A stretch of DNA of 64,000 bases from Flavobacteriales bacterium (GCA_963669295.1 OY769938.1:1625086-1689085); one strand, 5' to 3'; counted from the first letter of the stretch, positions 18,157 through 48,371 are shown. The notes: generated from the sequence alone by a model not told the origin. Made by a program: numbers and translations.

Positions 18157-19002
18157 TTGGAGATTTTCAACACAGTTTCTACCCTACAAAAGCGGTTAAA
18201 TGAACTGCGTGCAGAAGGGCAAACAGTAGGACTCATTCCTACTATGGGTGCATTGCATCAGGGGCACCTTTCCTTGATTGATATTGCCAGGGAACAAAGC
18301 GATATTGTGGTGGCCAGCATCTTTGTAAACCCCAAGCAGTTCAACGATTCTACTGATTTTAACAATTACCCCAGAACATTGGAAACTGATGCCAACCTGT
18401 TGAAGAAGCAAGGGTGTCATATGTTGTTTGCCCCACCTTACGATGAGGTGTATGATGGCAGCCCAACCTACAGGCATGATTTTGGTGCATTAGCTACAGT
18501 AATGGAAGGCACACATCGCCCCGGTCATTTTGAAGGCATGGCCATGGTGGTAAAACGCTTTTTCGACATTGTAATGCCCGATTTCGCGTTTTTTGGTCAA
18601 AAAGACTACCAGCAACTACAAATTATCAAAGTTATGGTTGCTCAAGAAAATCTACCCATTACCGTAGTAGGGTGCCCTACTGTAAGAGAAGCCAGTGGGT
18701 TGGCCATGAGTTCCCGCAATATGCTGTTGTCTGAACAAGAACGTAATACTGCTGCTCTGTTATCGAAAGTATTGTTCGATGCCAAAGAAATGGCGCAAAC
18801 ACAATCAGTAGCTCATGTTCAACAATATGCATTACAACAGTTAGGCACTGCTCCACGAATTGTATTGGAGTATTTTCAATTGGTGGACGGCAATACATTA
18901 CAGCCGCTTGAAACATGGGATCGCAGCAAAAGTGCAGTGGCCTGCATTGCTGCCCGTATTGGAGAAGTGCGGTTGATCGATAATGTAATATTATTTACTT
19001 AA
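18157..19002 (+). CDS. panC: Pantoate--beta-alanine ligase
   Basis: 281 aa with [14 protein letters not shown] (HxGH motif) and a TTG start. Confidence 0.95.
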
Positions 19003-19012
19003 TTTTGCCGCC

Positions 19013-26016: not shown

Positions 26017-26793
26017 TTAGACGGACAAACGCGATGCTAACTCCAGTAAAATAGGGCAGTGGTCGGAATGGTTGGCTTTACTTAAAATTGTAGCTCTTTG
26101 CATTCGGTGTTTTAACGCAATTGTTACCAACTGATAATCAATGCGCCAGCCTAAGTTTTTTTGCCTTGCTCCTCCACTGTAAGACCACCACGTATAATGG
26201 TGAGGCTCAGCGTTAAACTGGCGAAAAGCATCCACAAATCCGCTTTGTAATAATGCTGTTAGCCATTGTCGCTCCTCACTCAAAAATCCGGAAGCATGTA
26301 CATTGGCTACCGGGTTATGAATGTCAATAGGTTGGTGGCAAATGTTAAAATCGCCACAAATGATTAAGGCATATTGCTGTTGAAGCTCACGAACATGTTT
26401 CGAAAAGTGGGCCAACCAGTTCATTTTGTACAAATGACGCATCAAACCACTGCTTCCAGAAGGAACATAAATGCTCATTACTGAAAACTCCTCAAAATCT
26501 GCTCGTATACAACGCCCCTCCTCGTCCAGGGCTTCATTCCCCATGCCATACGTTACTTGCAACGGCTTCGCCTTTGTGAGGATGGCCACACCACTGTACC
26601 CCTTTCTGGCTGCAGGATTCCAGTAGCAATAATACCCCATAGCTTCAAAAATAGTTGCATCAAACTGTTCTGGAGTAGCCTTAATTTCCTGAAGGCATAT
26701 CACGTCGGCATCGGTTGCTTTGAGCCATTGTAACCAGTTCTTTTTCAGCACCGATCGGATGCCATTTATGTTATACGATATAATTTTTGCCAC
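26017..26793 (-). CDS. xth: Exodeoxyribonuclease III
   Basis: 258 aa with MAKIISYNINGIRS, ICLQEIK and the C-terminal SDHCPI motif. Confidence 0.9.
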   Translation of the reverse strand: MAKIISYNINGIRSVLKKNWLQWLKATDADVICLQEIKATPEQFDATIFEAMGYYCYWNPAARKGYSGVAILTKAKPLQVTYGMGNEALDEEGRCIRADFEEFSVMSIYVPSGSSGLMRHLYKMNWLAHFSKHVRELQQQYALIICGDFNICHQPIDIHNPVANVHASGFLSEERQWLTALLQSGFVDAFRQFNAEPHHYTWWSYSGGARQKNLGWRIDYQLVTIALKHRMQRATILSKANHSDHCPILLELASRLSV

Positions 26794-26897: not shown

Positions 26898-29800
26898 TTG
26901 CTGAAACCAATCACATTCTTCTTGTTGGTATTTGCATTGCTATTGACATCCGGCATTAGCAATGCGCAGGAACTCAACAACCGCCGTGCAAAGAAGCTTG
27001 TAATTGCCCAGGATACTACTTCTCTCGACTCCCTTACCATTGCTTTCAATTCTGCTTCAATAAGCGGAAAAAGTGGGCTGCTTGATGCAGCAGATTATGC
27101 CATCGATTATGCCCGAGGTTTGCTGATTTGGAAAGGCGAAGCATTTCCTGCCGATTCCATTGAAATTGCCTATCGGGTGCTGCCCATTCAAATTACTACC
27201 GAATACAAGCACAAAGATCTTCAGCGAATGGAACCCGATGCATCGGGCAAAATCAACCCTTTTAAATACACCACTACCAACCCGCAAAATGAAGATGTAT
27301 TTAAACTCTCGGGGCTTAACAAAAGTGGTAGCATTTCTCGAGGTGTTTCTTTTGGCAACAACCAAGATCTGTCGGTAAACTCCAACCTGAGCCTACAATT
27401 ATCAGGCAAATTGAACGACAACGTAAGCATTCTTGCCTCTGTTACCGATAACAACATTCCCATTCAACCAGACGGCAACACCCAACAACTGCAAGATTTT
27501 GATCAGGTATACATCCAAATTTACGACGACAAGTCGAAGCTCATTGCCGGTGATTTTCAATTAAAAACCCCTTCAAGCTATTTCATGCGGTACTTTAAAC
27601 GCACACAAGGTGGCTCGGTATCTACCAGCTTTGGAATGGGCAGTTATGAAATTCCTGGCACTGGCGAAGTAATTCCGGCAGCAAAAATGAAAGTATCGGC
27701 CAGTGCAGCAGTATCAAAAGGGAAGTTTGCACGAAACGTTATTCAAGGCATCGAAGGCAACCAGGGGCCCTACCGTTTGCAAGGTGCCGACAACGAAACC
27801 TTCATCATTATTTTGGCAGGAACCGAACGCGTATATATTGATGGTCAGCTGTTAACACGCGGGCAGGAAAACGACTACATCATTGATTACAATACAGCAG
27901 AAGTGGTGTTTACCCCCAACCGGCTCATCACTAAAGACAAACGAATTACCATAGAGTTTCAGTATTCCGATAAAAACTATGCTCGCTCATTGCTACAGTT
28001 TTCCAACGAATTTGAAAAAGATAAACTCAAGCTTCGGTTGCATTTGTATTCTGAGCAAGACAGCAAAAACCAACCTTTGCAACAAGACCTTACCCCAGAA
28101 GATAAAGAAGTGCTTTCGAACGTAGGCGACAGCCTTCAATTTGCAATTGTTCCCAGCATTCAGCAAGTAGAGTTTAGCAACGATCAAATTCTCTATGCCA
28201 TGGTTGACTCGTTGGGGTACGATTCTGTTTTTGTATACTCTACAGCACCCGACAGTGCCATTTATCAACTCAGCTTTTCGAATGTAGGGAGTGGCAATGG
28301 CGATTACCTACAAACCGATTTCACCGCTACCGGTCGGGTGTTTGAATGGGTGGCTCCCGATACCATCAACAATGTAATTGTTCGACGTGGTGATTATGAA
28401 CCCGTAATCGTACTCATTGCACCCAAAAAGCAACAAATGTTTGTGCTGGGAGCCGACTACGACTTCTCCGACCGTACCAGGGCGGGGGTTGAAATTGCTT
28501 ATTCCGATAAAGACATCAATACCTTTTCCCGGCTCGACGGAAGCAACGACCAGGGATATGCCATTCGCACTACACTAGAAAACAACACCCCCATACAGCA
28601 AAAAGAAAACCCATGGACATTGGGCACTTCTGTTGTCTTTGAAACGGTAGAAAAAAACTTTAACCGCATTGAGCGATTTAGAACGGTTGAATTTGAACGC
28701 AATTGGAACATTCAAAACACCTTGCTAACAGAGTCGCAATACGTTACCACCGCAGGCATAGGGTTACACCGTAAAAAAACAGGAGAGGTAAATTACAACT
28801 TCAACTCCTTCAATGTAGGCAACGAATACAACGGTTATAAAAACGATGTTAACGCCAACCTAAAATTTACTGGATTGGACCTGAGGTTTAATGGAAGTTT
28901 ATTGAATACCACCGGCTTCAACAAAACAGCATTTATTCGCCACAAGTCGAGAATAGCAAAACGATTAAAATTCTTTGTGCTGGGGTTTAAAGACGAGCAC
29001 GAGCAAAACGAATTTTTTGATGTCGATTCGGATTCGTTGCTAAACAACAGCTATCGTTTTTACGATTGGGAAGTATTTGCCACCAACATCGACACCACCA
29101 AAAACAGGTTTTCGATGTACTACAAGCAACGATACGACCATGCAGTAAACAACAATACTTTACGCGAATCTACATTTGCTGAGGCCATGGGGTTTACGTT
29201 CGACCTCATCAAAAATCCGCGCAACCAATTAAGGGGAAAAGCTGCTTATAGAAAACTCACCATTACCAACGATGAGCTAACTGCGCAGGAGCCTGACAAC
29301 ACCTTGCTTGGGCGACTGGAATACAGTGTTAAACTGCTTAAAGGATCCATCAATTCTTCTACTTTTTATGAAATTGGTTCGGGGTTAGAACAAAAAAAGG
29401 AATTTGTATATGTAGAAGTTCCTGCCGGGCAAGGGGTATATGAGTGGATCGATTACGATGATGACAACGTAAAAGACTTGAATGAATTTGAAATTGCTTC
29501 GTTTCCCGACAGGGCCACTTACATTAGGGTATTTACTCCCACCACAGAGTACGTAAAAACCTTTACCAATCAGTTTAACCAGGTGTTGAACTTACGCCCG
29601 GCTGCATTATGGCGCGATAAAACTGGAATATTGAAGTTTATTGGCCGATTCTCTAATCAAACCGCTTTTCGGGTAGATAGAAAAACCAACGAAGACGATG
29701 CAACAACTGCTTACAACCCCTTTTTAAGAGATGTTGCCGATTCGACGTTGCTTGCTCTCAATTCTTCCATTCGAAATACCGTTTCTTTTAACCGAACGAA

Positions 29801-30404
29801 TTCTAAATTTGGCATCGATTATACGTATCAAAGCATCAGCAGTAAATCGCTACTTACAAATGGCTTTGATGCTCGTGATAACTTGTTAAACGAGGGGCGG
29901 GTAAGGTGGAACATTACTCGACAAGTAACCATGATTGTGCGTAACGAAGTGGGAAAACGCTCCACTTCTTCGGATTTTTTAACCAACAGAAATTATAACA
30001 TCGATTACATTACCGCGGAAACTAAATTTTCGTACCAACCCGGTACTACCTTTAGGGTAAGTGTTAAAGGAGAATACACCGAAAAAAAGAATGACCAGGA
30101 CCTTGGTGGTGAATTGGCAGAAATACAAGATTATGGCACTGAGCTAAAATACAATGTGGTATCTAAAGGCAGTTTTTTGGCTACATTCAATTTCATTAAC
30201 ATTGCATACAATGGGCTTACCAATACTTCGCTGGCCTTCGAAATGTTAAATGCCTTGCAAGTAGGAAAAAATTATACCTGGGGGCTTTCTTTTCAACGCA
30301 ACCTGGCCAACAATATGCAATTAAGCGTTAATTACAGTGGCCGACAATCAGAAGATGCCCCTACAATCCATACGGGAGGGGTTCAAGTAAGGGCTTTCTT
30401 TTAA
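26898..30404 (+). CDS. Large secreted protein, probable outer-membrane beta-barrel, family not recognised
   Basis: 1168 aa with a signal peptide ending NAQ. The C-terminal half has alternating beta-strand-like composition and ends ...GGVQVRAFF, a terminal aromatic typical of OMPs. TTG start. Confidence 0.5.
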   Translation: [1168 protein letters not shown]

Positions 30405-32131: not shown

Positions 32132-32139
32132 TATATTTG
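32132..32139 (+). promoter_or_regulatory. -7 box TATATTTG ending 4 nt before the ATG at 32144 (candidate leaderless mRNA)
   Basis: Perfect TAnnTTTG. Confidence 0.35.
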
Positions 32140-32143
32140 CACC

Positions 32144-32632
32144 ATGGCCGAAGAATTGCACATTATTAGTGGAAGTAAAACAGCGCGTTACGAATCGCTG
32201 CTGCCACAAATTAAAGCACTGATAGCAGGTGAAGACGACCTTATTGCCAACCTGGCCAATATTGTGGCAGCGCTTAAGTACGGCATGAACTTCTTTTGGG
32301 TGGGATGTTATATCGTAAAAAACGACACCCTTGTGTTGGGGCCATTTCAGGGGCCGGTGGCATGTACTCGTATTGCTAAAGGTAAAGGGGTTTGTGGCAC
32401 GTCGTGGGAAAAAAAAGAAACCATTATTGTGGATGATGTAGACGCCTTTCCCGGGCATATTGCTTGTAGTGCTGAAAGTAGGTCGGAAATTGTACTCCCG
32501 CTTTTAGGTGACGATGGGAACGTAAAAATCATCTTAGATGTAGACAGTAAACAGTTGGCTGACTTCGATGATACCGATGCACATTATTTAACCCAGGTTA
32601 TTCAACTCATTAAGCCCACACTTACTCCTTGA
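32144..32632 (+). CDS. GAF-domain protein of the free methionine-(R)-sulfoxide reductase (MsrC/YebR) type
   Basis: 162 aa: LVLGPFQGPVACTRIAKGKGVCGTSW...DVDAFPGHIACSAESRSEIVLP. Confidence 0.75.
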   Translation: MAEELHIISGSKTARYESLLPQIKALIAGEDDLIANLANIVAALKYGMNFFWVGCYIVKNDTLVLGPFQGPVACTRIAKGKGVCGTSWEKKETIIVDDVDAFPGHIACSAESRSEIVLPLLGDDGNVKIILDVDSKQLADFDDTDAHYLTQVIQLIKPTLTP

Positions 32633-34224
32633 ATAGTCGGTTAAATATCGTTTTAATTGGCCTGTTATTCATGGCCTCGTGCGCACAAATTGTGCCTCCA
32701 ACAGGTGGCGAAAAAGATACCACACCACCAACCTTGCTCAGCAGTGTTCCCGAAAATTACAGCACGCAATTCAACAGCAAAACTATTGTGTTGGAGTTCG
32801 ATGAATATGTAAGTCTAAAAGACATCAGCAACCAGCTCATCATTTCTCCTCCAATGCAGGAAAAACCAGTGTTTAAGTTGAAAGGGAAAATGCTATACAT
32901 TGAGTTAAAAGAAGCATTACAACCCAATACCACTTACAACCTCAACTTTGGCAACTCAGTGGCCGACATTACCGAAGGCAATTTAGCAGGCGAGCTGCAA
33001 TATGTGTTTTCTACAGGAACATTTCTCGACTCACTGACCTGGTCTGGCAAAGTGAAAAACGCATTTAATAACGCCCCGGAAGGAGATGTGTTGGTTATGT
33101 TATACGAAACCCTTGAAGATTCTATTCCGTTAAAAGAAAGGCCCAACTACTTTGCTAAAACCAGGAAAGATGGAACTTTTTCCATCCACCACATTAAAGC
33201 GGGGAAGTACAAATTGTTTGCATTAAAAGACGGCAACTTCAACTACCTTTTCGACCTGGCCAATGAAGCCATTGCTTTCTCGCTTGAAGCCATAGATCCC
33301 GGGGTAAAAGACACCGTTCAACCCAAACCGTTAGGGTTGTTCGTTGAAGATAACGAGGTACAATACGTAAAGAAAGTTGCCTTCAATGCTCCGGGTAGTT
33401 TAACGGTTGTTTTTAACAAACCCACCGAGAACCCAAACATCACTGCCTTAAACCATACGTTTAAAAAAGACTGGTTTATCAAAGAGTTGTTGCCTAATAA
33501 AGATACCTTACTGTATTGGCTTACTGGCGTGGGGGGAATTGATACCCTGTTGTTGGAAGTAAAAGATGGTGCTACAGTAATCGATACGCTTCAAGTGAAC
33601 ATTGTTACGGATAATGACAAGCAAAAAAAATTAAGCGGTTCCAACAACGGAAGTGGTGTTTTTAACCCCAACGATTCTTTGTGGCTTGTTTTTTCGAGTC
33701 CCATCAAAAACTTCGACACTTCGCACATCCAACTATTCAAAGATACCATTCAACTTCCAGTTCAAATTGTAAGCACTGATAAAGCATTAAGGCGTTACGC
33801 CATTGCTTTTCCGTGGGAAGAGAAAACAACCTACAAGTTACAGGCATTGCCAAATGCATTTACCGATATTTACAACCGTACTCATGACACGTTAAACATT
33901 AATTTAACCACACGTAAGTTGCGTTATTATGGTTCCTTTAAAATGACACTTCATTTTGAAGGAAGCAATAACATTTTGCAATTGCTTAACGATAAAGGGC
34001 AGGTGGTACAAGAAAACATGGTGTCTTCTGGCAATACCATCCATTACCACCTTCTTGACCCAGGCACCTATGCCATGAAATTGATTTTCGATGACAACAA
34101 TAATGGCAAATGGGATACTGGGAACTACCTGGAAGGAATACAACCTGAAAAAACCACCTTCTTTCAAGATAAAATCACCGTTCGATCTAGCTGGGAGTTT
34201 GAATTAGATTGGACAATCAAGTAA
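32629..34224 (+). CDS. Ig-like (SbsA/Big_5-type) domain lipoprotein
   Basis: 531 aa. LFMASCAQIVPPTGGEKDTTPP is typical of this family. The TTG start overlaps the upstream stop as TTGA. Confidence 0.65.
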   Translation: MNSRLNIVLIGLLFMASCAQIVPPTGGEKDTTPPTLLSSVPENYSTQFNSKTIVLEFDEYVSLKDISNQLIISPPMQEKPVFKLKGKMLYIELKEALQPNTTYNLNFGNSVADITEGNLAGELQYVFSTGTFLDSLTWSGKVKNAFNNAPEGDVLVMLYETLEDSIPLKERPNYFAKTRKDGTFSIHHIKAGKYKLFALKDGNFNYLFDLANEAIAFSLEAIDPGVKDTVQPKPLGLFVEDNEVQYVKKVAFNAPGSLTVVFNKPTENPNITALNHTFKKDWFIKELLPNKDTLLYWLTGVGGIDTLLLEVKDGATVIDTLQVNIVTDNDKQKKLSGSNNGSGVFNPNDSLWLVFSSPIKNFDTSHIQLFKDTIQLPVQIVSTDKALRRYAIAFPWEEKTTYKLQALPNAFTDIYNRTHDTLNINLTTRKLRYYGSFKMTLHFEGSNNILQLLNDKGQVVQENMVSSGNTIHYHLLDPGTYAMKLIFDDNNNGKWDTGNYLEGIQPEKTTFFQDKITVRSSWEFELDWTIK

Positions 34225-34240
34225 TTTTTAGCTATTTTTG
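34209..34240 (+). promoter_or_regulatory. Candidate promoter of adhesin paralog A: TTG-N21-TATTTTTG, with the -33 element inside the last codons of the upstream gene
   Basis: TTG at 34209-34211 and a perfect -7 box at 34233-34240. The same geometry is conserved at 36907-36938. Confidence 0.5.
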
Positions 34241-34469
34241 TTGTCGCTCTCTTTCCAATTAAACATGACGAAACACTGTTTATCGCTCTGATGATCAGCA
34301 ATTTGCCTGAACATCAAGAATGCTGTTTTTCGTTGAATGCGTTGAATCGCTTGCCTTAAGGGGAGCCGAGTAATGTTTTTGTTGTTATAAAGGGCAGCAA
34401 AACAAGCTTACCCTGCATTAGCAGCGCGTTGTGGCTAAAACGCAATGTATTAATGCAAAATTTTGACTG

Positions 34470-36806
34470 ATGGTAAGCAAAACACTCAATGCTATTTCAC
34501 GAAAGGTGAAGTTAATCTTTATGTTAATACTAGTATGTTCTTTCTTCAAGGCATACGGGCAACAAACCTATACAACAACGGGCACTGAATTTTGGTTGGG
34601 GTACTTGGAAGGCCCTGATATTATTGACACCACTTCCACACGATTGGAAATCTTGATTACTTCTGACGCAAACACTTCTGGCACTATTTCCATTCCTCAA
34701 CAGGGATATGTACAAAGCTTTAATGTGGTGGCTAATGTTACCACCTCTGTAACAATTCCTAATTACATGGCCGAGCACTACGGTGGTGGTTTTTTCGAAA
34801 ATAAAGGGGTCTTGATTGAAACGCAAAATCCCTGTGCGGTTTTTGCTCTCCATCTAGATCGGTTTACCCCTGATGCCATCAAAGTACTTCCTGTTACAGC
34901 TCTGGGTACCAAATACATGGTAAGTGCTTACCAGGGAATAGATCTTTCCACCAATTATTCCGAGTTTCTAATCGTAGCTACCGAAGACGCTACGCAGGTA
35001 GTGATTACTCCCAGTGCCAACACTTCTTCTGGTCAGGTGGCAGGAACATCTTATACCGTACAACTGGATCGGGGAGAATCCTTTCAATTACAGGCTGCAG
35101 AAGGAGCCGATGACTTAACAGGCTCTACTATTGTGGCTACCCCTACAAGTGGTAAATGCAAGCCCTTTGCGGTATTTTCGGGTGCCATGTGTTCCTACGT
35201 ACCGCTGGGGTGTCCTCCTGGCGATCATCTTTGGGAGCAAAACTTCCCCACTGAATCTTGGGGAACAGAATATTTGATGGCGCCTGTTAGCCTGGCTACC
35301 AACTATACCTACCGGGTAATGGCATTAAATAATGGCACCAATTACACCATTGATGGTGGTGCTCCACAACTTTTAAATGCCGGGCAGTTTGATGAGTACA
35401 ATTTCGCCCCTGATGCCCATTGTATTCAAGCCGACAGTCCTATTTGTGTAACCCAATACCTGGAAGGTTCAGACTGTGGTGTTACTGCCGACCCATCGCA
35501 AGTCATCCTGAATGCTTCTGATCAAATGATTAACAACATTACTTTTAGTACAATAATCGATCCCATGTTTGTTCAGGATTTAAGTGTTGTTATGGAAACG
35601 CCTTACACCAACACCTTATCATTGGACGGGATGCCGATAGGTGCCGCACAATTTACCCCCTTTAATAACTGTCCGGGATACTCCTGGGCGCACATAACTA
35701 TTCTTCAACAGGGAAGTCATACCTTAACTTCTCCCTTTGGCTTTAGTGCTTATGCATATGGTGCTGGACTACATCAAAGCTACGCCTACTCTTTAGGGGC
35801 ATTAATTACAGAGCCTACTATCATTGACTCGGTTATTTGTACTTCGGATACTGCTGTACTTATAGCGCCTAATGGGATGTTAAACCCATGGTGGGCTACT
35901 CAATCGAACCCTAACGACACTATTGCAATAGGGGCAACTCTAATACTTTATCCCCCCTTTCCTAATGAAATTTACATTGTAACAGGTGATGACTCAATAG
36001 TACCTGGTTGTATACAAACCTATTCATACAGCATTGACTATCAACCACCACCAGCCATAACATTGACTACTTCTAAAGATACGGTGTGTTTATATGACTC
36101 GATTGCTATGAACGTTACCCTGACTCCTTCGGGGGCTTATTCATACAATTGGACGCCTCCATTAGCATTCAGCGACCCTAATAGTGCCAACCCCGTACTA
36201 ACCCCTTCACAAAGCGGATGGTATGTGTGCAACATTGAATCAACTATCAATTGTGTGAATGCAGCAGACAGCATATACATTGCTTTATACCCAGAACCCC
36301 AACCGCTACCGTACAACGAAGCCACTTTTTGTGACTTGGAAATTCCGGGCATCGTTGTGTTGGATGCAAGCAACCCCGGCTCTACCTATTTATGGTCTAC
36401 AGGAGATACGACACAACAAATTACAGTGAAAACTGATGGCACCTTCTATGTTACCATTACTTCCGCTAATAACTGTGTAAATGTAGATAGCATCGTTGTA
36501 AATCTCTTTTGCCAACCACAGGTATACGTGCCAAACTCATTCACGCCCAACGGTGATGAAAGGAATGATTTCTTTAGGGCTTACGGAGATAACATTGCTG
36601 AATTCGAGATGTTCATCTACAATCGTTGGGGGCAATTGATCTTTCACACAGAAGAAATAGATCATGCGTGGGGAGGGTTCTTTGAAGGAGAACCGGTACA
36701 ACAAGATGTATATACCTGGAAAGTTATATACCGCCCCAGAGCATCGTTTAATGGGCCTTTATCTCATACAAAGGAGTTGATAGGGCATGTTACCCTCATC
36801 CGATAA
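34470..36806 (+). CDS. T9SS type-B sorting-domain adhesin, paralog A (IgGFc-binding-N-terminal-like domain plus Cys-containing Ig-like repeats plus gliding-motility C-terminal domain)
   Basis: 778 aa with a signal peptide and an N-terminal GTEFWLGYLEG... block. The C-terminus VPNSFTPNGDERNDFFRAYG...IYNRWGQLIF...WGG...VYTWKV matches the type-B (CHU_C/TIGR04131-like) sorting domain. Confidence 0.85.
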   Translation: MVSKTLNAISRKVKLIFMLILVCSFFKAYGQQTYTTTGTEFWLGYLEGPDIIDTTSTRLEILITSDANTSGTISIPQQGYVQSFNVVANVTTSVTIPNYMAEHYGGGFFENKGVLIETQNPCAVFALHLDRFTPDAIKVLPVTALGTKYMVSAYQGIDLSTNYSEFLIVATEDATQVVITPSANTSSGQVAGTSYTVQLDRGESFQLQAAEGADDLTGSTIVATPTSGKCKPFAVFSGAMCSYVPLGCPPGDHLWEQNFPTESWGTEYLMAPVSLATNYTYRVMALNNGTNYTIDGGAPQLLNAGQFDEYNFAPDAHCIQADSPICVTQYLEGSDCGVTADPSQVILNASDQMINNITFSTIIDPMFVQDLSVVMETPYTNTLSLDGMPIGAAQFTPFNNCPGYSWAHITILQQGSHTLTSPFGFSAYAYGAGLHQSYAYSLGALITEPTIIDSVICTSDTAVLIAPNGMLNPWWATQSNPNDTIAIGATLILYPPFPNEIYIVTGDDSIVPGCIQTYSYSIDYQPPPAITLTTSKDTVCLYDSIAMNVTLTPSGAYSYNWTPPLAFSDPNSANPVLTPSQSGWYVCNIESTINCVNAADSIYIALYPEPQPLPYNEATFCDLEIPGIVVLDASNPGSTYLWSTGDTTQQITVKTDGTFYVTITSANNCVNVDSIVVNLFCQPQVYVPNSFTPNGDERNDFFRAYGDNIAEFEMFIYNRWGQLIFHTEEIDHAWGGFFEGEPVQQDVYTWKVIYRPRASFNGPLSHTKELIGHVTLIR

Positions 36807-36846
36807 ATGGTACATGTCACATAGAGAAGCTATTTTAATACAGCCC

Positions 36847-36922
36847 AAAAGTGACCTTTTTTCAAGATAAAATCACCGTTCGATCCAGCTGGGAGTTCGA
36901 GTTGGATTGGACAATCAAGTAA
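36847..36922 (+). pseudogene. Relic copy of the last ~22 codons plus stop of gene 32629-34224, carried by the tandem duplication
   Basis: 36855-36922 aligns with 34157-34224 with only 5 differences. It encodes the identical peptide FFQDKITVRSSWEFELDWTIK*. An in-frame TAA at 36836-36838 closes the frame upstream. Confidence 0.85.
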
Positions 36923-36938
36923 TTTTTAACTACTTTTG
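36907..36938 (+). promoter_or_regulatory. Candidate promoter of adhesin paralog B: TTG-N21-TACTTTTG
   Basis: TTG at 36907-36909 lies inside the relic, and a perfect -7 box sits at 36931-36938. Spacing is identical to paralog A. Confidence 0.5.
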
Positions 36939-37173
36939 CCTTACTCTTTCCATCCATTTAATCAACCTAACCAAAACACATCAAGCAACTTGTAATCAGC
37001 GAATTGTGTTGTTTTTAGGTAACAATTCCTGTTTTACTGCGTTAAATCGCGTGTTTTATATGAATGAAAAATGCTGTTTTTGTTGAATTTTCAAGCAACC
37101 AAAACTGCTTTACTACGTCTTTACAGCGTGTTGTTATTAAAATCCGAACAGCGGATATTAAATTATTGAACAG

Positions 37174-40100
37174 ATGTTAACAAGAAAACTCTCCAATATA
37201 TCTCAAAAAATGAGGCTGATTTTTACTGTATTGTTGACTTGCTCTTTCTTAGGAGCGATGGGGCAACAAATATACCCTACCATGGGAACCGAGTTTTGGC
37301 TGGGTTACATGGAAAACTATAATACTTCCGCCAATGATCGGCTGGAAATCTTCATTACTTCTGATGTCAATACATCAGGTACTGTATCTATTCCACAACA
37401 AGGGTTTTCTCAAAATTTCAATGTTGTAGCAAATGTTACTACTACTGTTTTGGTTCCAAATGCCAATGCAGAGCACTATGGAGGAGGGTTTGTAGACAAT
37501 AGAGGTATTTTAATTGAAACCAACGATACCTGTGCAGTTTTCGCCATTAATTTTGATAATTATACTGCTGATGCAACCAAGGTGTTGCCCACCGTTTCTT
37601 TGGGTACCGAGTACCTGGTGAGTACCTATCTTGGATTAAGTGGAAACTCTTATAACTCCGAATTTGTAATTGTTGCCACTGAAGATGGGACTGAAGTTGA
37701 AATTACTCCCTCATCCAACACTTCATCTGGACAAACTGCCGGTGTTCCTTTTATCGTACAATTGGATCGAGGCGAATCCTATCAAATACAGGCAGCAGTA
37801 GGGTCCGACGATTTAACCGGATCTACCATTATTGCCACACCGGCAAGTGGCGACTGTAGGCCCTTTGCTGTGTTTTCTGGAACCATGTGTACCAATACTC
37901 CTGTTGGATGTTATGCGTGCGACCATACCTTCGACCAAAACTTTCCCACCGAAACATGGGGGACAGATTATTTTATAGTTCCCATTAGTTTTGCCACCAA
38001 CTACACTTACCGTGTGATGGCACTCAACAATGGAACCAACTACACCATTGATGGAGGTGCCCCGCAACTATTAAATGCCGGGCAATTTGATGAGTACAAC
38101 TATGACCCAAGTGCACATTGTATTCAAGCAGATGGTCCTATTTGTGTAACACAACACCTTGAAGGAGTAGGTTGTGCTGGTAGCGGAGACCCTGCTCAAA
38201 TGATTCTGAACGCCTCTGATCAGATGATTAGCGATATTACCTTTAGTACGGTAACTTCTACTGTAATTACTCAACATGGTTTGAATGTAATTATGGAAAC
38301 ACCTTATACCAATACCTTGTCGTTAGACGGTGTTCCAGTAAACGCTGGACAGTTTACTCCATTTACAAATTGTGGAGGATATTCCTGGGCGCAAATTACC
38401 ATTGCACAGGGAAGTCATACCCTAACTTCTCCTTTTGGTTTTACAGCTTATGTATATGGTACAGGAAGTGCGGAAAGTTATGCTTATTCGGTAGGATCTT
38501 TTAGCACCGAACCTATTCCACCTATTGATACCGTAATTTGTACATCCGATACTGCTACCCTTGTAGCACCTAATGGATTATTTAACCCCTGGTGGGCCAC
38601 CCAAACAAATCCAACTGATACCATTGGCACTGGAACAGTACTGGTGCTTCCACCCCCGGTAACCACCGATATTTATATTGTTACTGGTGATGCTCTTGTA
38701 TCTGGGTGCGAGCAGACTTATTCATACAGTGTAGAGTACCAACAACCACCAGCGATGACCATCACTATCCCAGATGATACGGTCTGTTTGTATGAATCGA
38801 TCCCCATGAACGTTACGCTGAACCCTCCAGGATCGTATTTATACGACTGGACTCCCCCATTAGAATTTAATAATCCTAATATCGTAAACCCTATACTCAC
38901 CCCTTCGCAAAGTGGCTGGTACGTGTGTAATATTCAATCGCTAACTGGCTGTGTGAGTTTTGCTGATAGTATTTACGTCACTGTGGTAGGTGGTGATGTG
39001 CTTACGGTTGATGCAATCACCGGCAATGGCACAGATCAAGACACTTTATGTCCGGGCGACGATAGTCAGCTCGATGTAGAAATGCAACGGATTATTTTCA
39101 ACGATAATTTTGACCCACTAAACAATGGCCTTTGGGCAAGCCTTCAAAATGGTGTTGCCAGCAGTTTATGTGGTTCAGTAAATGGTAATGCGCTTTACTT
39201 TGATGGTGCTGGAGTGCGATCGGCCGAAACCAATGGCATGGATGTGTCTACTGGAGGAACAGTGCGATTCATGCTGAAGATTGCCAATGGAGCGGCTCCT
39301 TGTGAAAATGCAGATCCAGGTGAAAATGTAGTGTTGGAATACTCCGCAATGGGAGGTCCATGGACCATTATCAATACCTATTTCGAGTCCATGTATCCCA
39401 ATTTCACCATGATCAATGAAGCTATTCCTGCTGGAGCCATGAGTACTAACACACAGTTTAGATGGAGGCAATTGGCCAACTCGGGGGCAGGACAAGACAA
39501 CTGGGCACTCGACAATTGTGTCATTGCTACCCTGAATAACTCTGGTTTCCTATACCAGTGGACACCAGCAGTAGGATTAACCAATGCTGCAATTCCAAAC
39601 CCTGTTGCTGATCCAGCAATAGCTACAGTTTATGAAGTAATGGTAATCGATACAGTAGCCGGTTGTAACTATGTAGACTCTGTAACTATTTTGGTAGATG
39701 TTCCATTTACATTGGACATGCCCAATGACACTATTTTATGTGATGTAGCTGGCGTGCAGTTAGATGCCAACCCAACAGCAGCAAGCGGACATACGTTTGC
39801 GTGGACACCCAACAATGGTACCTTAACAAGCACTACCATACAAAACCCCGTGGCCACACCTAATGTTACCACTACCTACTATGTAGATGCTACCTCAGAC
39901 TTAGGGTGCACCGTAACAGATAGTATAAACATAACAGTGGCTGGCTTAAATAGTGTTACGGCAACCACCAACAACAACGACTTTTGCCAGGGGCAATCTG
40001 CCATATTAAATGCCGTGGTAAGCGGTAACCCTAATGCGTATACCTTCAATTGGATGCCCAACCTTGATTTAGACGACAATACGTTGCAAAGCCCTACAGC

Positions 40101-41784
40101 TACGCCTACTGATACAGTAATGTATATTGTAACGGTAACCGATACTGCATCTGGATGTATATTAATTGACAGTATTCAAATTAATGTAATTCCGAGCTTC
40201 CCTGTAACTGCCATGAATGATACTGCATTGTGTCACTCTGTGAATTTGCCATTAACTGTAACTCACGGAGCAGTAGGTGCAGTTACCTACGATTGGCAAC
40301 CTGCTGGTTTATTGAACGACAATACCCTGGCTTCGCCAACAATTACCTCTGATGCTGATACTACTTTCTATGTAACAGTAACGGATGGGCAAGGGTGCTC
40401 CAACATAGATTCTGTACATGTTACCATCCTTTACACGGATGTATTCCTGGGCAACGACACCTCGTTGTGTCAAGGTGAAACACTAACGTTAGATGCGGGG
40501 AACTACGTATCCTACCAGTGGTCTACCTCTCCGAACGACACCTTGCAAACCATTACTATTAATGCTTCAGGCACCTATAGTGTGGATGTAGTAAATGCAG
40601 AAGGATGCTTTGCGCAAGACACCATAACAGTAGTTGTATTCCAATTACCGGTGGTTAACCTGGGGCCTGATACTGCTTTGTGTGATGGACTGTCTGTTGA
40701 CCTTGACGCGGCCAACGCCGGCTCTACTTACGACTGGTCGACCAACGAAACAACACAAATCATCACAGTTACAACTACCAATAATTATAGTGTTACTGTA
40801 ACAGATGGTAATGGGTGCCAAAATTCAGACGACATTAATGTAACATTCAACCCATTGCCTGTGATTGACCTTGGAGTAGATCAAACGGTTTGTGAGAACC
40901 AGGTAGTAGTATTAGACGCAGGTAATGCTGGAGCAATATTTAATTGGTCAACTACCGAAAATACGCAAAGTATTATTGCAAATAATACAGACACCTACTG
41001 GGTAGAAGTGACCAATCAATTCAACTGTACCTCTACCGATACTGTTGATGTTACCATCATCACTCATCCAATTGTTGACCTGGGGCCCGACACGGCATTG
41101 TGTCATGGCGAGAGCCTTATGTTAATTGCTGGCAACCCCACATTCTATAGCAACTGGTCGACCAGTGAATTTGGTGATACTATTGTAGTAACTACCAGCG
41201 ATTTATACAGTGTAAGTGTAACCAATGGGTATTGTACTACTACTGATCAAATTGATGTAATATTCAATCCATTGCCACAACCTCTGCCTTACAACGACAC
41301 CACTTTCTGTGATTGGGACATTCCAGGAATGGCGGTGCTGGATGCAGGAAACCAGGGAGCCACATACTTGTGGTCGACGGGAGAAACCACGCAACAGATT
41401 ACAGTAAATAATGATGAAACCTTCTATGTTACAATTACTACTCCTGAGAACTGTGCTGGAACAGATAGTGTAGAAGTAAATATATTCTGCCAACCCACCA
41501 TTTATGTGCCCAATTCATTTACCCCGAATGGTGATGGTAGAAACGATTACTTCCAGGCGTATGGCGAAAACATAGTAGAGTTTGAAATGTTCATCTTCGA
41601 CCGTTGGGGTCAATTGATTTTCCACTCTGAAGAAATGAATCTTGCCTGGGGGGGAACCTATGATGGTACTCCGGTACAACAAGATGTGTATGTGTGGAAA
41701 ATTAAGTACCGCTATCAACAGTCATTTGAAGGCCCAATGTCTTCTAAAAAAGAATTGACGGGACATGTTACCCTATTAAGATAA
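37174..41784 (+). CDS. T9SS type-B sorting-domain adhesin, paralog B (paralog A architecture plus a ~2.3-kb internal expansion)
   Basis: 1536 aa. The first ~600 aa and last ~175 aa are collinear with paralog A. The insert (about 38985-41270) contains one jelly-roll-like module (...FRWRQLANSGAGQDNWALDNCVI) followed by about 10 Cys-containing Ig-like repeats of two types. C-terminus: VPNSFTPNGDGRNDYFQAYG...DRWGQLIF. Confidence 0.85.
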   Translation: MLTRKLSNISQKMRLIFTVLLTCSFLGAMGQQIYPTMGTEFWLGYMENYNTSANDRLEIFITSDVNTSGTVSIPQQGFSQNFNVVANVTTTVLVPNANAEHYGGGFVDNRGILIETNDTCAVFAINFDNYTADATKVLPTVSLGTEYLVSTYLGLSGNSYNSEFVIVATEDGTEVEITPSSNTSSGQTAGVPFIVQLDRGESYQIQAAVGSDDLTGSTIIATPASGDCRPFAVFSGTMCTNTPVGCYACDHTFDQNFPTETWGTDYFIVPISFATNYTYRVMALNNGTNYTIDGGAPQLLNAGQFDEYNYDPSAHCIQADGPICVTQHLEGVGCAGSGDPAQMILNASDQMISDITFSTVTSTVITQHGLNVIMETPYTNTLSLDGVPVNAGQFTPFTNCGGYSWAQITIAQGSHTLTSPFGFTAYVYGTGSAESYAYSVGSFSTEPIPPIDTVICTSDTATLVAPNGLFNPWWATQTNPTDTIGTGTVLVLPPPVTTDIYIVTGDALVSGCEQTYSYSVEYQQPPAMTITIPDDTVCLYESIPMNVTLNPPGSYLYDWTPPLEFNNPNIVNPILTPSQSGWYVCNIQSLTGCVSFADSIYVTVVGGDVLTVDAITGNGTDQDTLCPGDDSQLDVEMQRIIFNDNFDPLNNGLWASLQNGVASSLCGSVNGNALYFDGAGVRSAETNGMDVSTGGTVRFMLKIANGAAPCENADPGENVVLEYSAMGGPWTIINTYFESMYPNFTMINEAIPAGAMSTNTQFRWRQLANSGAGQDNWALDNCVIATLNNSGFLYQWTPAVGLTNAAIPNPVADPAIATVYEVMVIDTVAGCNYVDSVTILVDVPFTLDMPNDTILCDVAGVQLDANPTAASGHTFAWTPNNGTLTSTTIQNPVATPNVTTTYYVDATSDLGCTVTDSINITVAGLNSVTATTNNNDFCQGQSAILNAVVSGNPNAYTFNWMPNLDLDDNTLQSPTATPTDTVMYIVTVTDTASGCILIDSIQINVIPSFPVTAMNDTALCHSVNLPLTVTHGAVGAVTYDWQPAGLLNDNTLASPTITSDADTTFYVTVTDGQGCSNIDSVHVTILYTDVFLGNDTSLCQGETLTLDAGNYVSYQWSTSPNDTLQTITINASGTYSVDVVNAEGCFAQDTITVVVFQLPVVNLGPDTALCDGLSVDLDAANAGSTYDWSTNETTQIITVTTTNNYSVTVTDGNGCQNSDDINVTFNPLPVIDLGVDQTVCENQVVVLDAGNAGAIFNWSTTENTQSIIANNTDTYWVEVTNQFNCTSTDTVDVTIITHPIVDLGPDTALCHGESLMLIAGNPTFYSNWSTSEFGDTIVVTTSDLYSVSVTNGYCTTTDQIDVIFNPLPQPLPYNDTTFCDWDIPGMAVLDAGNQGATYLWSTGETTQQITVNNDETFYVTITTPENCAGTDSVEVNIFCQPTIYVPNSFTPNGDGRNDYFQAYGENIVEFEMFIFDRWGQLIFHSEEMNLAWGGTYDGTPVQQDVYVWKIKYRYQQSFEGPMSSKKELTGHVTLLR

Positions 41785-41804
41785 TGGAAAGGGCCGGTTT
41801 GAAG

Positions 41805-42578
41805 TCACTGTATTTCAAACCGGTCTGCATCCAACCCTACTGGAAACTTTTCTCTAAACAATTGCAGTTCCTCAAAGGAAAGTTGTACCGTTTCCACACC
41901 ATCTTCACATGATTTAATGGTACTGATTACTTGCCCTTTCGGGTCGATTGCTGCTGAGTTGCCAGAGTAATCGATGCCATTGCCATCTTTTCCTACCCTA
42001 TTTACTCCTATAACGTATGCTTGATTTTCAATGGCTCTTGCTATAAGCAAACTGCTCCACGGATGGCTCCGTGCCTTGGGCCAATTCGCCACATAAATTA
42101 AACAATCATAATCTCCTTTGTTTCTGCTCCATACAGGAAACCGAAGGTCGTAACAAATTTGAAGATTTAAACGCCATCCTTTTAGTTCAACGATCGTTCG
42201 GCCTGATCCTCCAGAAAAGTGGTGATGTTCTTCAGCCATTCGAAAAAGATGGCGTTTATCGTAAGTGGCACAACTACCATCAGGACGCATCCACACCATT
42301 CTATTGTAATAACTCTCGTTTTCTTTAACAATGAGACTCCCGGTAATTACGCAATCCTTTTCTTGTGCTTTAGATTGCATCCATTGCACTGTTGGCCCAT
42401 CCATTGTTTCTGCAAGTCGCTCTGAGTGCATCGAAAAACCCGTGTTGAACATCTCGGGCAATACAATAACATCTGTTGATGACAGCGCTGCCAGCTTTGT
42501 ATTAAGCATCGAAAAGTTTTGTGCTGGCTGCTCCCAATGTAGTGCTGTTTGCACTATAGTAATGTGTAAACGCTCCAT
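41805..42578 (-). CDS. Carbon-nitrogen hydrolase family amidase (omega-amidase/YafV-like)
   Basis: 257 aa with VIVLPEMFNTGF (Glu), the catalytic Cys region LQICYDLRFP, and ANWP. Confidence 0.8.
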   Translation of the reverse strand: MERLHITIVQTALHWEQPAQNFSMLNTKLAALSSTDVIVLPEMFNTGFSMHSERLAETMDGPTVQWMQSKAQEKDCVITGSLIVKENESYYNRMVWMRPDGSCATYDKRHLFRMAEEHHHFSGGSGRTIVELKGWRLNLQICYDLRFPVWSRNKGDYDCLIYVANWPKARSHPWSSLLIARAIENQAYVIGVNRVGKDGNGIDYSGNSAAIDPKGQVISTIKSCEDGVETVQLSFEELQLFREKFPVGLDADRFEIQ

Positions 42579-48359: not shown

Positions 48360-48367
48360 TATTTTTG
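48360..48367 (+). promoter_or_regulatory. -7 box TATTTTTG ending 4 nt before the ATG at 48372
   Basis: Perfect TAnnTTTG. This implies a leaderless or very short-leader mRNA, or use of the ATG at 48381. Confidence 0.3.
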
Positions 48368-48371
48368 GTAA

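What the first reader, a model, noticed from the sequence alone, without database searches (positions are those of the whole stretch)
34148..36938. Duplication scar: the adhesin duplication carried the last ~22 codons of the upstream gene, and that relic appears to be the promoter
Segment 36855-36922 copies 34157-34224, the 3' end of the Ig-like lipoprotein gene. There are only 5 differences, all third-codon-position transitions, so both copies encode FFQDKITVRSSWEFELDWTIK*. Similarity continues for about 45 nt past the stop and then decays.

The paralogous adhesin genes themselves have diverged to roughly two-thirds protein identity, so a neutral relic should have decayed much further. In both copies a TTG sits 21 nt upstream of a perfect TAnnTTTG box placed about 10 nt after the stop: 34209/34233 and 36907/36931. 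This suggests the adhesin promoter is embedded in the 3' coding end of the upstream gene, and that the relic persists because it drives paralog B. A 23-codon GTG-initiated mini-ORF at 36851-36922 is the alternative explanation.
Basis: partly seen in the sequence, partly recalled or inferred. Interest (0 to 1): 0.55.

Follow-up and report, generated by a model that had tools for sequence, protein, structure and literature searches.

The report
Preserved duplication scar upstream of adhesin
When a surface-adhesin gene was duplicated in this Bacteroidota genome, the last 22 codons of the neighbouring gene were copied too, and that now non-coding scrap has stayed about 93% identical, probably because it carries a promoter and an RNA hairpin. 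This is a neat but ordinary kind of regulatory re-use.

Summary
Segment 36854-36938 copies 34156-34240, which is the last 22 codons and stop of a Big_5/DUF2141 lipoprotein gene plus 16 nt. There are 7 differences. The 5 inside the former reading frame are all third-position transitions.

The co-duplicated T9SS adhesin genes are 68% identical in protein, and their 4-fold sites are saturated at 36.5% identity. No 23-codon window in them reaches the relic's identity, so the relic is not a neutral remnant.

The promoter reading is partly supported:
- Identity collapses exactly after a perfect TAnnTTTG box, which has a TTG 21 nt upstream and a conserved AT-rich spacer.
- The compound motif is enriched about 3-fold in this window.
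- A core promoter covers only about 32 of the 85 nt, and it would leave unusually long leaders of about 225-230 nt.

I also found a plus-strand RNA hairpin (36878-36912, -20.5 kcal/mol, z = -4.4) that overlaps the -33 element. All four nearby differences strengthen it in the non-coding copy, and one is a compensatory U-A/C-G pair. It is weak in the coding copy and absent from 80 orthologues.

Best reading: a retained regulatory module of hairpin plus promoter. Gene conversion cannot be excluded because no close relative exists in any searchable collection. This is ordinary in kind and of modest interest.

The parts
32629..34224 (+). Lipoprotein gene (Big_5 Ig-like domain plus DUF2141). The ATG at 32671 gives the 517-aa form held in the public protein collection. 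Its last 22 codons are the source of the relic.
   Evidence: Pfam hits to Big_5 (2.4e-21) and DUF2141 (9e-9). P0001 is 100% identical. The C-terminal motif VRSxW[DE]xExxW is conserved across the family.
34156..34240 (+). Conserved block, copy A: the last 22 codons and stop of the lipoprotein gene plus 16 nt.
   Evidence: 7 differences in 85 nt compared with copy B.
36854..36938 (+). Conserved block, copy B: the relic. It lies in the adhesin A to adhesin B intergenic region, starting 48 nt after the adhesin A stop.
   Evidence: It is more conserved than any 23-codon window of the co-duplicated genes.
34470..36806 (+). Adhesin A (778 aa): IgGFc_binding domain plus a CHU_C / T9SS type B C-terminal sorting domain.
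   Evidence: No start codon is possible upstream of 34470 in this frame.
37174..41784 (+). Adhesin B (1536 aa): the same architecture plus Reelin_subrepeat-B and Ig_7 repeats (about 38980-41268) that adhesin A lacks.
   Evidence: It is 67.8% identical to adhesin A in protein, with 4-fold sites 36.5% identical.
34209..34240 (+). Candidate sigma-A promoter of adhesin A. The TTG (34209-11) lies in the codons for D-W. The spacer includes the TAA stop within TAATTTTTA. The -7 box TATTTTTG is at 34233-40. The predicted transcription start is about 34245-34247.
   Evidence: The consensus is taken from PMC7366714 and PMC6847099. The transcription start is inferred, not shown.
36907..36938 (+). Candidate sigma-A promoter of adhesin B. 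The TTG is at 36907-09 and the -7 box TACTTTTG at 36931-38. The predicted transcription start is about 36943-36945.
   Evidence: The high-identity block ends at 36938.
36878..36912 (+). RNA hairpin in the relic: a 13-bp stem that includes 3 G-U pairs. Its 3' arm contains the -33 TTG.
   Evidence: Folding energy -20.5 kcal/mol, z = -4.38, with 0 of 200 shuffles as stable. The minus strand gives z = -0.5. Only 0.04% of synonymous recodings of the peptide fold as well, and copy B carries the most stable of the 16 combinations at the 4 variable sites.
34180..34214 (+). The same hairpin inside the lipoprotein reading frame, in a weak form: 11 bp plus one C.A mismatch.
   Evidence: Folding energy -10.3 kcal/mol, z = -1.64. 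The pair 34188:34206 is U-A here and C-G in copy B.
36851..36922 (+). 23-codon GTG-initiated mini-ORF (MTFFQDKITVRSSWEFELDWTIK). The GTG corresponds to ACC at the same position in copy A.
   Evidence: There is no evidence of translation.
36862..36957 (-). Antisense ORF of 31 aa. Its counterpart in copy A is 34164-34301 (-), 45 aa. It shares third codon positions with the sense frame, so the same differences are synonymous here too. The N-termini are not conserved.
34241..34469 (+). Putative 5' leader of adhesin A. Its counterpart for adhesin B is 36939-37173. The two are only weakly alike apart from short conserved islands.
   Evidence: 58% identity per column against 47.7 +/- 1.9% for shuffles. 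The islands are TGTTTTTGTTG, TGCGTT.AATCGC and CAAAAC.
41791..41826 (+). 15-bp hairpin between adhesin B and the convergent amidohydrolase gene, likely a terminator. Adhesin A has no counterpart.
   Evidence: Folding energy -27.6 kcal/mol, z = -4.5. The sequences downstream of adhesins A and B are not alignable beyond GATAA(A)TGG.

Best explanation
The block is a true scar of an old tandem duplication of [end of lipoprotein gene, leader, adhesin gene]. I think the non-coding copy (36854-36938) has been kept almost unchanged because it is the cis-regulatory junction between the two adhesin genes.

That junction has two overlapping parts:
1. **A promoter.** It is a Bacteroidota sigma-A type promoter that straddles the old stop codon. 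The -33 TTG lies in the former D-W codons, the AT-rich spacer TAATTTTTA contains the stop, and the -7 box TAnnTTTG lies 9-16 nt after the stop. It would start adhesin transcripts about 225-230 nt upstream of each ATG.
2. **A hairpin.** It is a plus-strand RNA hairpin immediately upstream, whose 3' arm includes the -33 TTG. In the non-coding copy it is as stable as this genome's strongest post-gene hairpins. It most likely ends, stabilises or insulates adhesin A transcripts, since adhesin A lost the terminator hairpin that adhesin B still has.

In the coding copy the same nucleotides are held mainly by the protein sequence, and the hairpin is weak there. Occasional gene conversion may have helped keep the two copies alike.

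Shown: the duplication, the non-neutral conservation, the motifs, the hairpin and its asymmetry between the copies. Inferred: promoter activity, the transcription start sites, the role of the hairpin, and selection rather than conversion as the main cause.
For: **The relic is not neutral**
- The neutral yardstick is saturated. Adhesin 4-fold sites are 36.5% identical, and codons for identical amino acids are only 50% identical.
- The relic is 92.8% identical, above every one of 752 adhesin windows. P = 2e-21 to 9e-6.

**Conversion does not seem to act elsewhere in the unit**
- A 36-residue run that is identical in both adhesins has only 21 of 36 identical codons.

**Promoter**
- A perfect TAnnTTTG is present in both copies, and identity collapses at its last base.
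- TTG-N17-21-TAnnTTTG occurs 14 times against 4.7 +/- 2.1 expected, 8 of them intergenic.
- The box lies 12-130 nt upstream of about 14 other genes in the window.
- The AT-rich -18 region is conserved, matching the description in PMC6847099.
- Transcription starts inside or at the end of upstream genes are common in Bacteroides (21% internal starts; PMC7366714).
- The leader keeps residual homology and complementary conserved islands, which fits with it being transcribed.

**Hairpin**
- Copy B folds at -20.5 kcal/mol, z = -4.38, on the plus strand only.
- Only 0.04% of synonymous recodings are as stable as copy B, against 15% for copy A.
- Copy B carries the best of the 16 combinations at the 4 variable sites. 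This includes one compensatory U-A to C-G change and one C.A to C-G repair.
- Copy B uses the rarer codons TCC, TTC and GAG in an AT-leaning genome.
- The equivalent 45 nt of 80 orthologous genes show no structure: mean z = -0.10, minimum -2.65.
- Adhesin A has no terminator hairpin of its own, whereas adhesin B does.

**Number of differences**
- The count fits the case where only the coding copy drifts at synonymous sites: 6.4 expected, 5 seen.
Against: - There are only two sequences, so no difference can be assigned to one lineage and no true covariation statistic can be computed.
- Promoter plus hairpin stems explain about 55-60 of the 85 nt. The left 24 nt (36854-36877, 1 difference), the hairpin loop and part of the spacer are as well conserved, for no known reason.
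- The hairpin is not a canonical intrinsic terminator. Its T-run starts 11 nt after the stem, while this genome has textbook terminators elsewhere.
- Leaders of about 225-230 nt are far above the median for the phylum.
- The -33 element is only TTG, at the upper limit of spacing.
- TAnnTTTG alone is not enriched in the window: 53 found against about 70 expected.
- A second, one-mismatch box (TGTTTTTG) is conserved about 90 nt upstream of both ATGs.
- A moderately recent conversion tract followed by a few substitutions is disfavoured only at about p = 0.03-0.07 by the codon-position pattern.
Confidence: 0.45

Rival explanations
1. Concerted evolution without any function of its own. The 85-nt tract is a gene-conversion island. 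The coding copy in the lipoprotein gene evolves slowly under protein constraint and repeatedly overwrites the non-coding copy, or did so once fairly recently. On this reading the promoter-like box and the hairpin are incidental.
For: - Identity is high at every class of site, including the hairpin loop, the spacer and the left 24 nt, where no function is evident.
- Synonymous divergence in the relic is lower than in the adhesins: 17 of 22 codons are identical against 50% expected, p = 0.009.
- Both edges of the tract are sharp.
- Perfect blocks of 26 and 24 nt remain and could serve as recombination substrate.
Against: - No sign of conversion appears anywhere else in the 2.7-kb unit, even in a run of 36 identical residues.
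- All 5 in-frame differences avoid first and second codon positions, although the non-coding copy should mutate at any position (p about 0.03).
- All 4 differences near the hairpin strengthen it in the non-coding copy. That is the best of 16 combinations, it runs against the AT bias and it uses rarer codons.
- The right edge coincides to the base with the end of the -7 box.
Confidence: 0.2
2. One reading: the relic persists only because it is the promoter of adhesin B, and nothing else in it matters.
For: - The -7 box, the TTG and the AT-rich spacer are conserved, and the identity block ends at the box.
- It is the only perfect sigma-A motif common to both upstream regions.
Against: - The core promoter spans about 32 nt, yet 53 nt further upstream are equally conserved.
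- The hairpin asymmetry and the third-position-only pattern are left unexplained.
Confidence: 0.12
3. Hairpin only. The relic is kept as a 3' end, terminator or stability element of the adhesin A transcript. The adhesins are transcribed from elsewhere: by read-through from the lipoprotein gene or adhesin A, or from the conserved TGTTTTTG island about 90 nt before each ATG.
For: - The hairpin is strong, strand-specific and lineage-specific in the non-coding copy.
- Adhesin A lacks the terminator hairpin that follows adhesin B.
- An 11-nt island, TGTTTTTGTTG, is perfectly conserved in both leaders.
- A leader of about 90 nt would be less unusual than one of about 230 nt.
Against: - No T-run adjoins the stem, unlike this genome's canonical terminators.
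- TGTTTTTG lacks the near-invariant A of the -7 box. It is also complementary to the CAAAAC island, which suggests an RNA stem rather than a promoter.
- This reading does not explain why identity persists from the hairpin to exactly the end of the TAnnTTTG box.
Confidence: 0.12
4. The relic is translated. The 23-codon GTG ORF at 36851-36922 makes a micro-protein or leader peptide identical to the lipoprotein C-terminus, and protein-level selection keeps it.
For: - The ORF is intact, and its GTG was created right at the left edge of the conserved block, where copy A has ACC.
- All differences are synonymous third-position transitions.
- The bases at -1 to -4 are all A, a favourable context in Bacteroidota (PMC6847099).
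Against: - The pattern is explained equally well if all the changes happened in the coding copy.
- The antisense frame shows the same 'synonymous' pattern, so that signal is not frame-specific.
- The ORF lies upstream of the predicted adhesin B promoter, and its codons sit inside a -20.5 kcal/mol hairpin.
- Conservation continues 16 nt past its stop.
- No reason is known why a free peptide should need all 22 residues of a beta-sandwich C-terminus. That motif itself varies among orthologues.
Confidence: 0.05
5. A small protein is encoded on the opposite strand: 36862-36957 (-) and 34164-34301 (-).
For: - Both copies are open in that frame.
- Their shared C-terminal 21 residues are identical.
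- The 3-nt indel just beyond the block keeps the frame.
Against: - The N-terminal halves and the start codons differ (ATG against TTG; 31 aa against 45 aa).
- The open frame is a geometric by-product of sharing third positions with a conserved sense frame.
- No family or domain evidence supports it.
Confidence: 0.02

Closest known systems
Bacteroidota primary sigma factor (sigma-A / sigma-ABfr) promoters: -33 TTTG and -7 TAnnTTTG
   Same: - An exact -7 box is present in both copies, with a TTG 21 nt upstream.
- The AT-rich stretch around -18 matches the one described for Flavobacterium johnsoniae (PMC6847099).
- The same box sits upstream of many other genes in this window.
   Different: - The -33 element is TTG rather than TTTG, and the spacing is at the upper limit.
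- The implied leader is about 225-230 nt, against a median of 24-33 nt.
- The upstream half of the promoter lies inside the coding sequence of another gene.
- No transcription-start data exist for this organism.
Internal or gene-end transcription start sites that drive the downstream gene, as mapped by dRNA-seq in Bacteroides thetaiotaomicron
   Same: The promoter for the next gene is embedded in, or straddles, the 3' end of the upstream gene. PMC7366714 reports 21% internal transcription starts, for example the start for BT_3336 inside oprM.
   Different: Here the arrangement is inferred from a duplication that copied the embedded promoter together with a piece of the host gene. It is not based on mapped RNA ends.
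Rho-independent (intrinsic) terminators
   Same: A stable stem-loop lies 72-106 nt after the adhesin A stop. Its stability is comparable to the best post-gene hairpins in the window.
   Different: - There is no U-tract directly after the stem; it begins 11 nt later.
- The stem contains three G-U pairs and is not GC-rich.
- Canonical terminators in this genome look different.
Concerted evolution of tandem paralogues by short-tract gene conversion
   Same: A short tract of much higher identity, including silent positions, lies inside otherwise diverged direct repeats.
   Different: The differences are not randomly placed with respect to the dead reading frame or to the hairpin, and no other tract in the unit shows conversion.
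Exaptation of gene fragments left by duplication or rearrangement as regulatory sequence
   Same: A former coding fragment, no longer part of a gene, survives next to the paralogue it was copied with. It carries that paralogue's upstream signals.
   Different: The fragment has kept the parental reading frame, amino-acid sequence and stop codon intact, which such remnants usually lose.

Membership tests
Bacteroidota sigma-A promoter | -7 element TAnnTTTG | tested here: met
   TATTTTTG at 34233-40 and TACTTTTG at 36931-38.
Bacteroidota sigma-A promoter | -33 element TTTG about 19-21 nt upstream of the -7 box | tested here: inconclusive
   Only TTG (aTTGg) is present, with a 21-nt spacer. The compound motif is enriched 3-fold in the window. 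The -33 element is reported as weak in Flavobacterium (PMC6847099).
Bacteroidota sigma-A promoter | AT-rich spacer motifs around -18 and -28 | tested here: met
   TAATTTTTA is identical in both copies at about -24 to -16. The motif is described in PMC6847099.
Bacteroidota sigma-A promoter | Primary transcript 5' end 4-7 nt downstream of the box | not testable with these tools
   No RNA data are available. The prediction is 34245-34247 and 36943-36945.
Bacteroidota sigma-A promoter | Typical distance to the start codon (median leader 24-33 nt) | tested here: not met
   From the end of the box to the ATG is 230 nt for adhesin A and 236 nt for adhesin B. Other boxes in the window lie 12-130 nt upstream. 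Leaders over 100 nt make up 13.5% in B. thetaiotaomicron (PMC7366714).
Intrinsic terminator | Stable stem-loop downstream of a gene | tested here: met
   36878-36912 folds at -20.5 kcal/mol with z = -4.38. It is the strongest 45-nt fold within 130 nt after the adhesin A stop.
Intrinsic terminator | U-tract immediately 3' of the stem | tested here: not met
   The tail is AAUCAAGUAAUUUUU, and the consensus scan does not flag it.
Structured cis-acting RNA element | Base pairs kept through compensatory changes | tested here: inconclusive
   One compensatory pair (34188:34206, U-A to C-G) and one repaired mismatch were found between only two sequences. There is no Rfam match.
Gene-conversion tract (concerted evolution) | Silent-site identity well above that of the flanks | tested here: met
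   17 of 22 codons are identical against 50% in the adhesins (p = 0.009). The non-coding 16 nt carry 2 differences.
Gene-conversion tract (concerted evolution) | Paralogous copies within a genome are closer than orthologous copies between related genomes | not testable with these tools
   No close relative exists. The best lipoprotein homologue is 48% identical and the best foreign adhesin 40-45%. DNA pattern scans found nothing, and the rest of the source genome is not retrievable.
Translated small ORF / leader peptide | Intact ORF with a start codon and evidence of translation or independent conservation | tested here: inconclusive
   The GTG ORF 36851-36922 is intact. The synonymous-only pattern is also produced by the coding copy and by the antisense frame. 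There are no expression data and no relatives.
Tandem segmental duplication | Collinear repeat units at a constant offset | tested here: met
   The offset of 2698 nt is shared by the relic and four adhesin segments. The C-terminal parts lie at 4978 nt because of the 760-aa difference between the adhesins.
Tandem segmental duplication | Identifiable junction | tested here: inconclusive
   36807-36853 matches neither the lipoprotein gene nor the region downstream of adhesin B above chance.

The most novel reading that the evidence does not exclude
The dead reading frame is not dead. Read-through transcripts from adhesin A would be translated from the newly created GTG at 36851 into a 23-residue peptide identical to the C-terminal strands of the lipoprotein. 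That peptide, or the act of translating through the hairpin that overlaps the adhesin B promoter, would regulate adhesin B. This alone would directly explain why every difference is a synonymous third-position change.
Probability: 0.05. Interest if true: 0.6.

Novelty: new member of a known kind. Interest (0 to 1): 0.3.

Why it matters
If confirmed, this would be a clean natural example of a promoter that straddles the stop codon of one gene and is copied along with the next gene, dragging a piece of the host gene's coding sequence with it. That piece would then survive, frame and all, as regulatory DNA or RNA.

It would also give a practical handle on how T9SS adhesin genes are transcribed in a poorly sampled Bacteroidota lineage: a long leader and a hairpin overlapping the -33 element.

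It does not reveal a new kind of system. Its value is as a worked case of coding-to-regulatory re-use, and as a caution that 'synonymous-only' divergence in a pseudogene-like fragment can arise without translation.

Tried and rejected
**Comparative genomics, which would have been decisive, found nothing usable**
- A genome-contig scan with the lipoprotein gave 80 loci, the best only 39% identical. None has the adhesin downstream.
- Protein searches found the source genome's own proteins as singletons. The next-best hits were 48% identical (lipoprotein) and 40-45% (adhesin).
- Exact look-ups of the window's proteins and of the third paralogue P0123 returned no contig.
- The nearest foreign adhesin, P0124, sits in an unrelated context.
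- Two metagenome DNA pattern scans found nothing: one used a codon-degenerate version of the relic, the other the invariant 24-mer.
- A plasmid BLAST also found nothing.

**Known RNA families and RNA genes**
- There were no Rfam matches at gathering threshold anywhere in the window, and only noise near the relic.
- No tRNA or tmRNA genes were found.

**Other ideas rejected**
- A second hairpin at 36851-36876, made possible by the GTG substitution, folds at only -2.0 kcal/mol.
- A decayed upstream extension of the relic, or an assignable duplication junction, is not significant.
- A conserved uORF in the leaders is ruled out because the conserved islands are read in different frames in the two copies.
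- The hairpin is not a general property of the lipoprotein gene end.
- The relic is not a repeated or mobile element. There are only two copies in 64 kb, even with 3 mismatches allowed.
- The E. coli-type promoter and terminator scan gave no enrichment.

Full report
**1. What is there**

The window comes from a Bacteroidota genome with 42.6% G+C and no relative closer than about 48% protein identity in any collection I could search.

- ORF 32629-34224 (ATG at 32671) encodes a lipoprotein with a Big_5 Ig-like domain and a DUF2141-like C-terminus.
- It is followed by two paralogous genes for surface proteins secreted by the type IX secretion system (T9SS). Adhesin A is 34470-36806 (778 aa) and adhesin B is 37174-41784 (1536 aa). 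Both have an IgGFc_binding domain and a CHU_C / type B sorting domain.
- Direct repeats at a constant offset of 2698 nt link the end of the lipoprotein gene, the intergenic region and the N-terminal halves of the adhesin genes. The C-terminal parts are offset by 4978 nt because adhesin B has about 760 extra residues.
- This is one tandem duplication unit, and it began inside the lipoprotein gene.

**2.

- At offset 2698, segments 34156-34224 and 36854-36922 differ at five positions: 34161, 34188, 34200, 34203 and 34206. All five are transitions at codon position 3, and both copies read (T)FFQDKITVRSSWEFELDWTIK-stop.
- The next 16 nt carry two differences (34231, 34235). Identity then collapses immediately after the G that ends a TAnnTTTG box at 34233-40 / 36931-38.
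However, a weak gapped similarity does run through the whole leader: 58% per column against 47.7 +/- 1.9% for shuffles.
- To the left of 34156 nothing significant remains. The 47 nt between the adhesin A stop and the block cannot be assigned to either parent sequence.

**3. It is not a neutral relic**

- The adhesins are 67.8% identical in protein. Their third codon positions are 47% identical and their 4-fold degenerate sites 36.5%, which is saturation. Codons for identical residues match only 50% of the time.
- The relic is 92.8% identical over 23 codons. None of 752 sliding windows in the adhesin pair reaches that; the maximum is 89.9%.
- A 36-residue stretch that is identical in both adhesins has only 21 of 36 identical codons. 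This shows what protein-level constraint without conversion looks like in this same unit.
- The binomial probabilities for the relic are 2e-21 at the 4-fold-site identity and 9e-6 at the mean nucleotide identity.

**4. The promoter reading**

- The literature gives the Bacteroidota primary promoter as TAnnTTTG at -7, with a weaker TTTG near -33 (PMC7366714). In Flavobacterium johnsoniae the -33 is barely visible, AT-rich motifs at -18 and -28 are more prominent, and the transcription start lies 4-5 nt after the box (PMC6847099).
- TAnnTTTG alone is not enriched in this window: 53 found against about 70 expected. It does sit 12-130 nt upstream of about 14 genes.
- The compound motif TTG-N17-21-TAnnTTTG occurs 14 times against 4.7 +/- 2.1 in shuffles. 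Eight of these are intergenic, including the two relic sites.
- In both copies the TTG lies in the former D-W codons, the stop codon is part of a fully conserved TAATTTTTA at about -20, and the identity block ends at the box.
- Against it, the box would leave 230- and 236-nt gaps to the start codons, whereas median leaders in the phylum are 24-33 nt. Leaders over 100 nt do exist, at 13.5% in B. thetaiotaomicron (PMC7366714, PMC9723704).
- The core promoter also covers only about 32 of the 85 conserved nucleotides.

**5.

- Positions 36878-36912 fold into a 13-bp plus-strand RNA hairpin with three G-U pairs: -20.5 kcal/mol, z = -4.38, and 0 of 200 shuffles as stable. The opposite strand does not fold (z = -0.5).
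- The same positions in the lipoprotein gene (34180-34214) make only an 11-bp version with a C.A mismatch: -10.3 kcal/mol, z = -1.64.
- Four of the five in-frame differences lie in this hairpin:
  - 34188 and 34206 face each other, forming U-A in the coding copy and C-G in the relic.
  - 34203 turns a C.A mismatch into a C-G pair.
  - 34200 is in the loop, and the change there also stabilises the fold.
- Of the 16 possible combinations at these four sites, the relic has the most stable and the coding copy one of the weaker.
- Among 5000 synonymous recodings of the same 15 residues, drawn from this genome's codon usage, 15% fold as well as the coding copy. Only 0.04% fold as well as the relic.
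- The relic uses the rarer codons TCC, TTC and GAG.
- The equivalent 45 nt of 80 orthologous lipoprotein genes show no tendency to fold: mean z = -0.10, minimum -2.65.
- So the hairpin is specific to this lineage and is strongest where the sequence is no longer translated.
- Its 3' arm contains the -33 TTG.
- It is the most stable fold in the 130 nt after the adhesin A stop, and it matches the best post-gene hairpins in the window.
- Adhesin B is followed by a 15-bp convergent terminator hairpin (41791-41826, -27.6 kcal/mol) for which adhesin A has no counterpart.
- The relic hairpin is not a canonical terminator. The T-run starts 11 nt after the stem, and this genome has textbook terminators elsewhere.

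**6. The third-position pattern**

- If differences fell anywhere in 66 nt, all five landing on third positions has p = 0.003. If third positions are allowed to change in both copies, and other positions only in the non-coding copy, p = 0.03.
- The pattern therefore argues mildly against two ideas: a freely drifting relic refreshed by conversion, and constraint that ignores codon phase.
- It is fully explained if the non-coding copy has not changed at all and the coding copy drifted at silent sites. Under that model 6.4 changed codons are expected and 5 are seen.
- It is also explained by translation of the 23-codon GTG ORF at 36851-36922, whose GTG replaces ACC exactly at the block's left edge.
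- I rate translation low, for these reasons:
  - The antisense frame shares the same third positions and shows the same 'synonymous' pattern.
  - Conservation continues past the stop codon.
  - The ORF sits in a strong hairpin upstream of the predicted promoter.
  - The parental C-terminal motif itself varies among orthologues.

**7. What cannot be settled**

- With two sequences and no outgroup, I cannot tell which copy changed, or separate purifying selection from gene conversion.
- Promoter plus hairpin stems explain about two-thirds of the block. The left 24 nt, the loop and part of the spacer are as well conserved for no evident reason, and that is what a conversion tract would look like.
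- Against conversion, three points stand: no homogenisation is seen anywhere else in the unit, the differences favour the hairpin, and the right edge coincides with the end of the -7 box.
- All routes to related sequences were exhausted.

**8. Verdict**

- The most likely account (about 0.45) is a retained regulatory junction: a plus-strand hairpin acting on adhesin A transcripts, overlapping a sigma-A promoter for adhesin B that straddles the old stop codon. Gene conversion may have contributed.
- The rivals are:
  - a functionless conversion island, 0.2
  - promoter alone, 0.12
  - hairpin alone with the promoter elsewhere, 0.12
  - a translated mini-ORF, 0.05
  - an antisense ORF, 0.02
- Promoters embedded in upstream genes, and duplications that carry them, are well known. 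This is a new example of a known kind and of modest interest.

Noticed in passing
window 34470-36806 compared with 37174-41784 (extra segment about 38980-41268 in adhesin B): Adhesin A lacks about 760 residues (Reelin_subrepeat-B plus Ig_7 repeats). Adhesin B, a third paralogue elsewhere in the same genome (P0123, 1234 aa) and the nearest foreign homologue (P0124) all have them. Adhesin A is also the faster-evolving copy: 42% identity to the outgroup against 48-49.5% for the other two. It therefore looks like an internally deleted, diverging duplicate.
   Followed up: partly
window 34374-34403 and 37075-37105: The two best-conserved islands of the adhesin leaders are TGTTTTTGTTG and CAAAAC. 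They are complementary and form a small plus-strand hairpin in both copies (z = -2.2 and -1.5), with one flanking pair changed on both sides. TGTTTTTG is also a one-mismatch -7 box about 90 nt before each ATG.
   Followed up: partly
window 41791-41826: A 15-bp hairpin (-27.6 kcal/mol, z = -4.5) sits between adhesin B and the convergent CN_hydrolase/amidohydrolase gene (41805-42578, minus strand). It overlaps the end of that gene and is probably a bidirectional terminator.
   Followed up: partly
window 34164-34301 (-) and 36862-36957 (-): Antisense ORFs are open across both copies of the block, with identical C-terminal 21 residues. A 3-nt indel just outside the block keeps them in frame. This is most likely a by-product of sharing third codon positions with the sense frame.
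   Followed up: partly
window 19000-19012, 26641-26653 (-), 32132-32143, 48360-48371: Four genes have a TAnnTTTG box starting only 12-13 nt before the predicted ATG. That would give leaderless or nearly leaderless mRNAs, unless the start codons are mis-set.
   Followed up: no
window 35295-35402 and 37993-38100: A 36-residue stretch (ATNYTYRVMALNNGTNYTIDGGAPQLLNAGQFDEYN) is identical in both adhesins but has only 21 of 36 identical codons. It is a strongly constrained protein motif inside the IgGFc_binding domain.
   Followed up: no
window 52902-56939 (-) and 26898-30404 (+): Two large ORFs (1345 and 1168 aa) have no Pfam match. The first also has a TAnnTTTG box 250 nt upstream of its ATG, so it may have another long leader.
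   Followed up: no
window 40441-41108: A 35-nt direct repeat occurs three times at spacings of 213 and 420 nt inside adhesin B. It probably reflects the tandem Ig_7-type domains.
   Followed up: no
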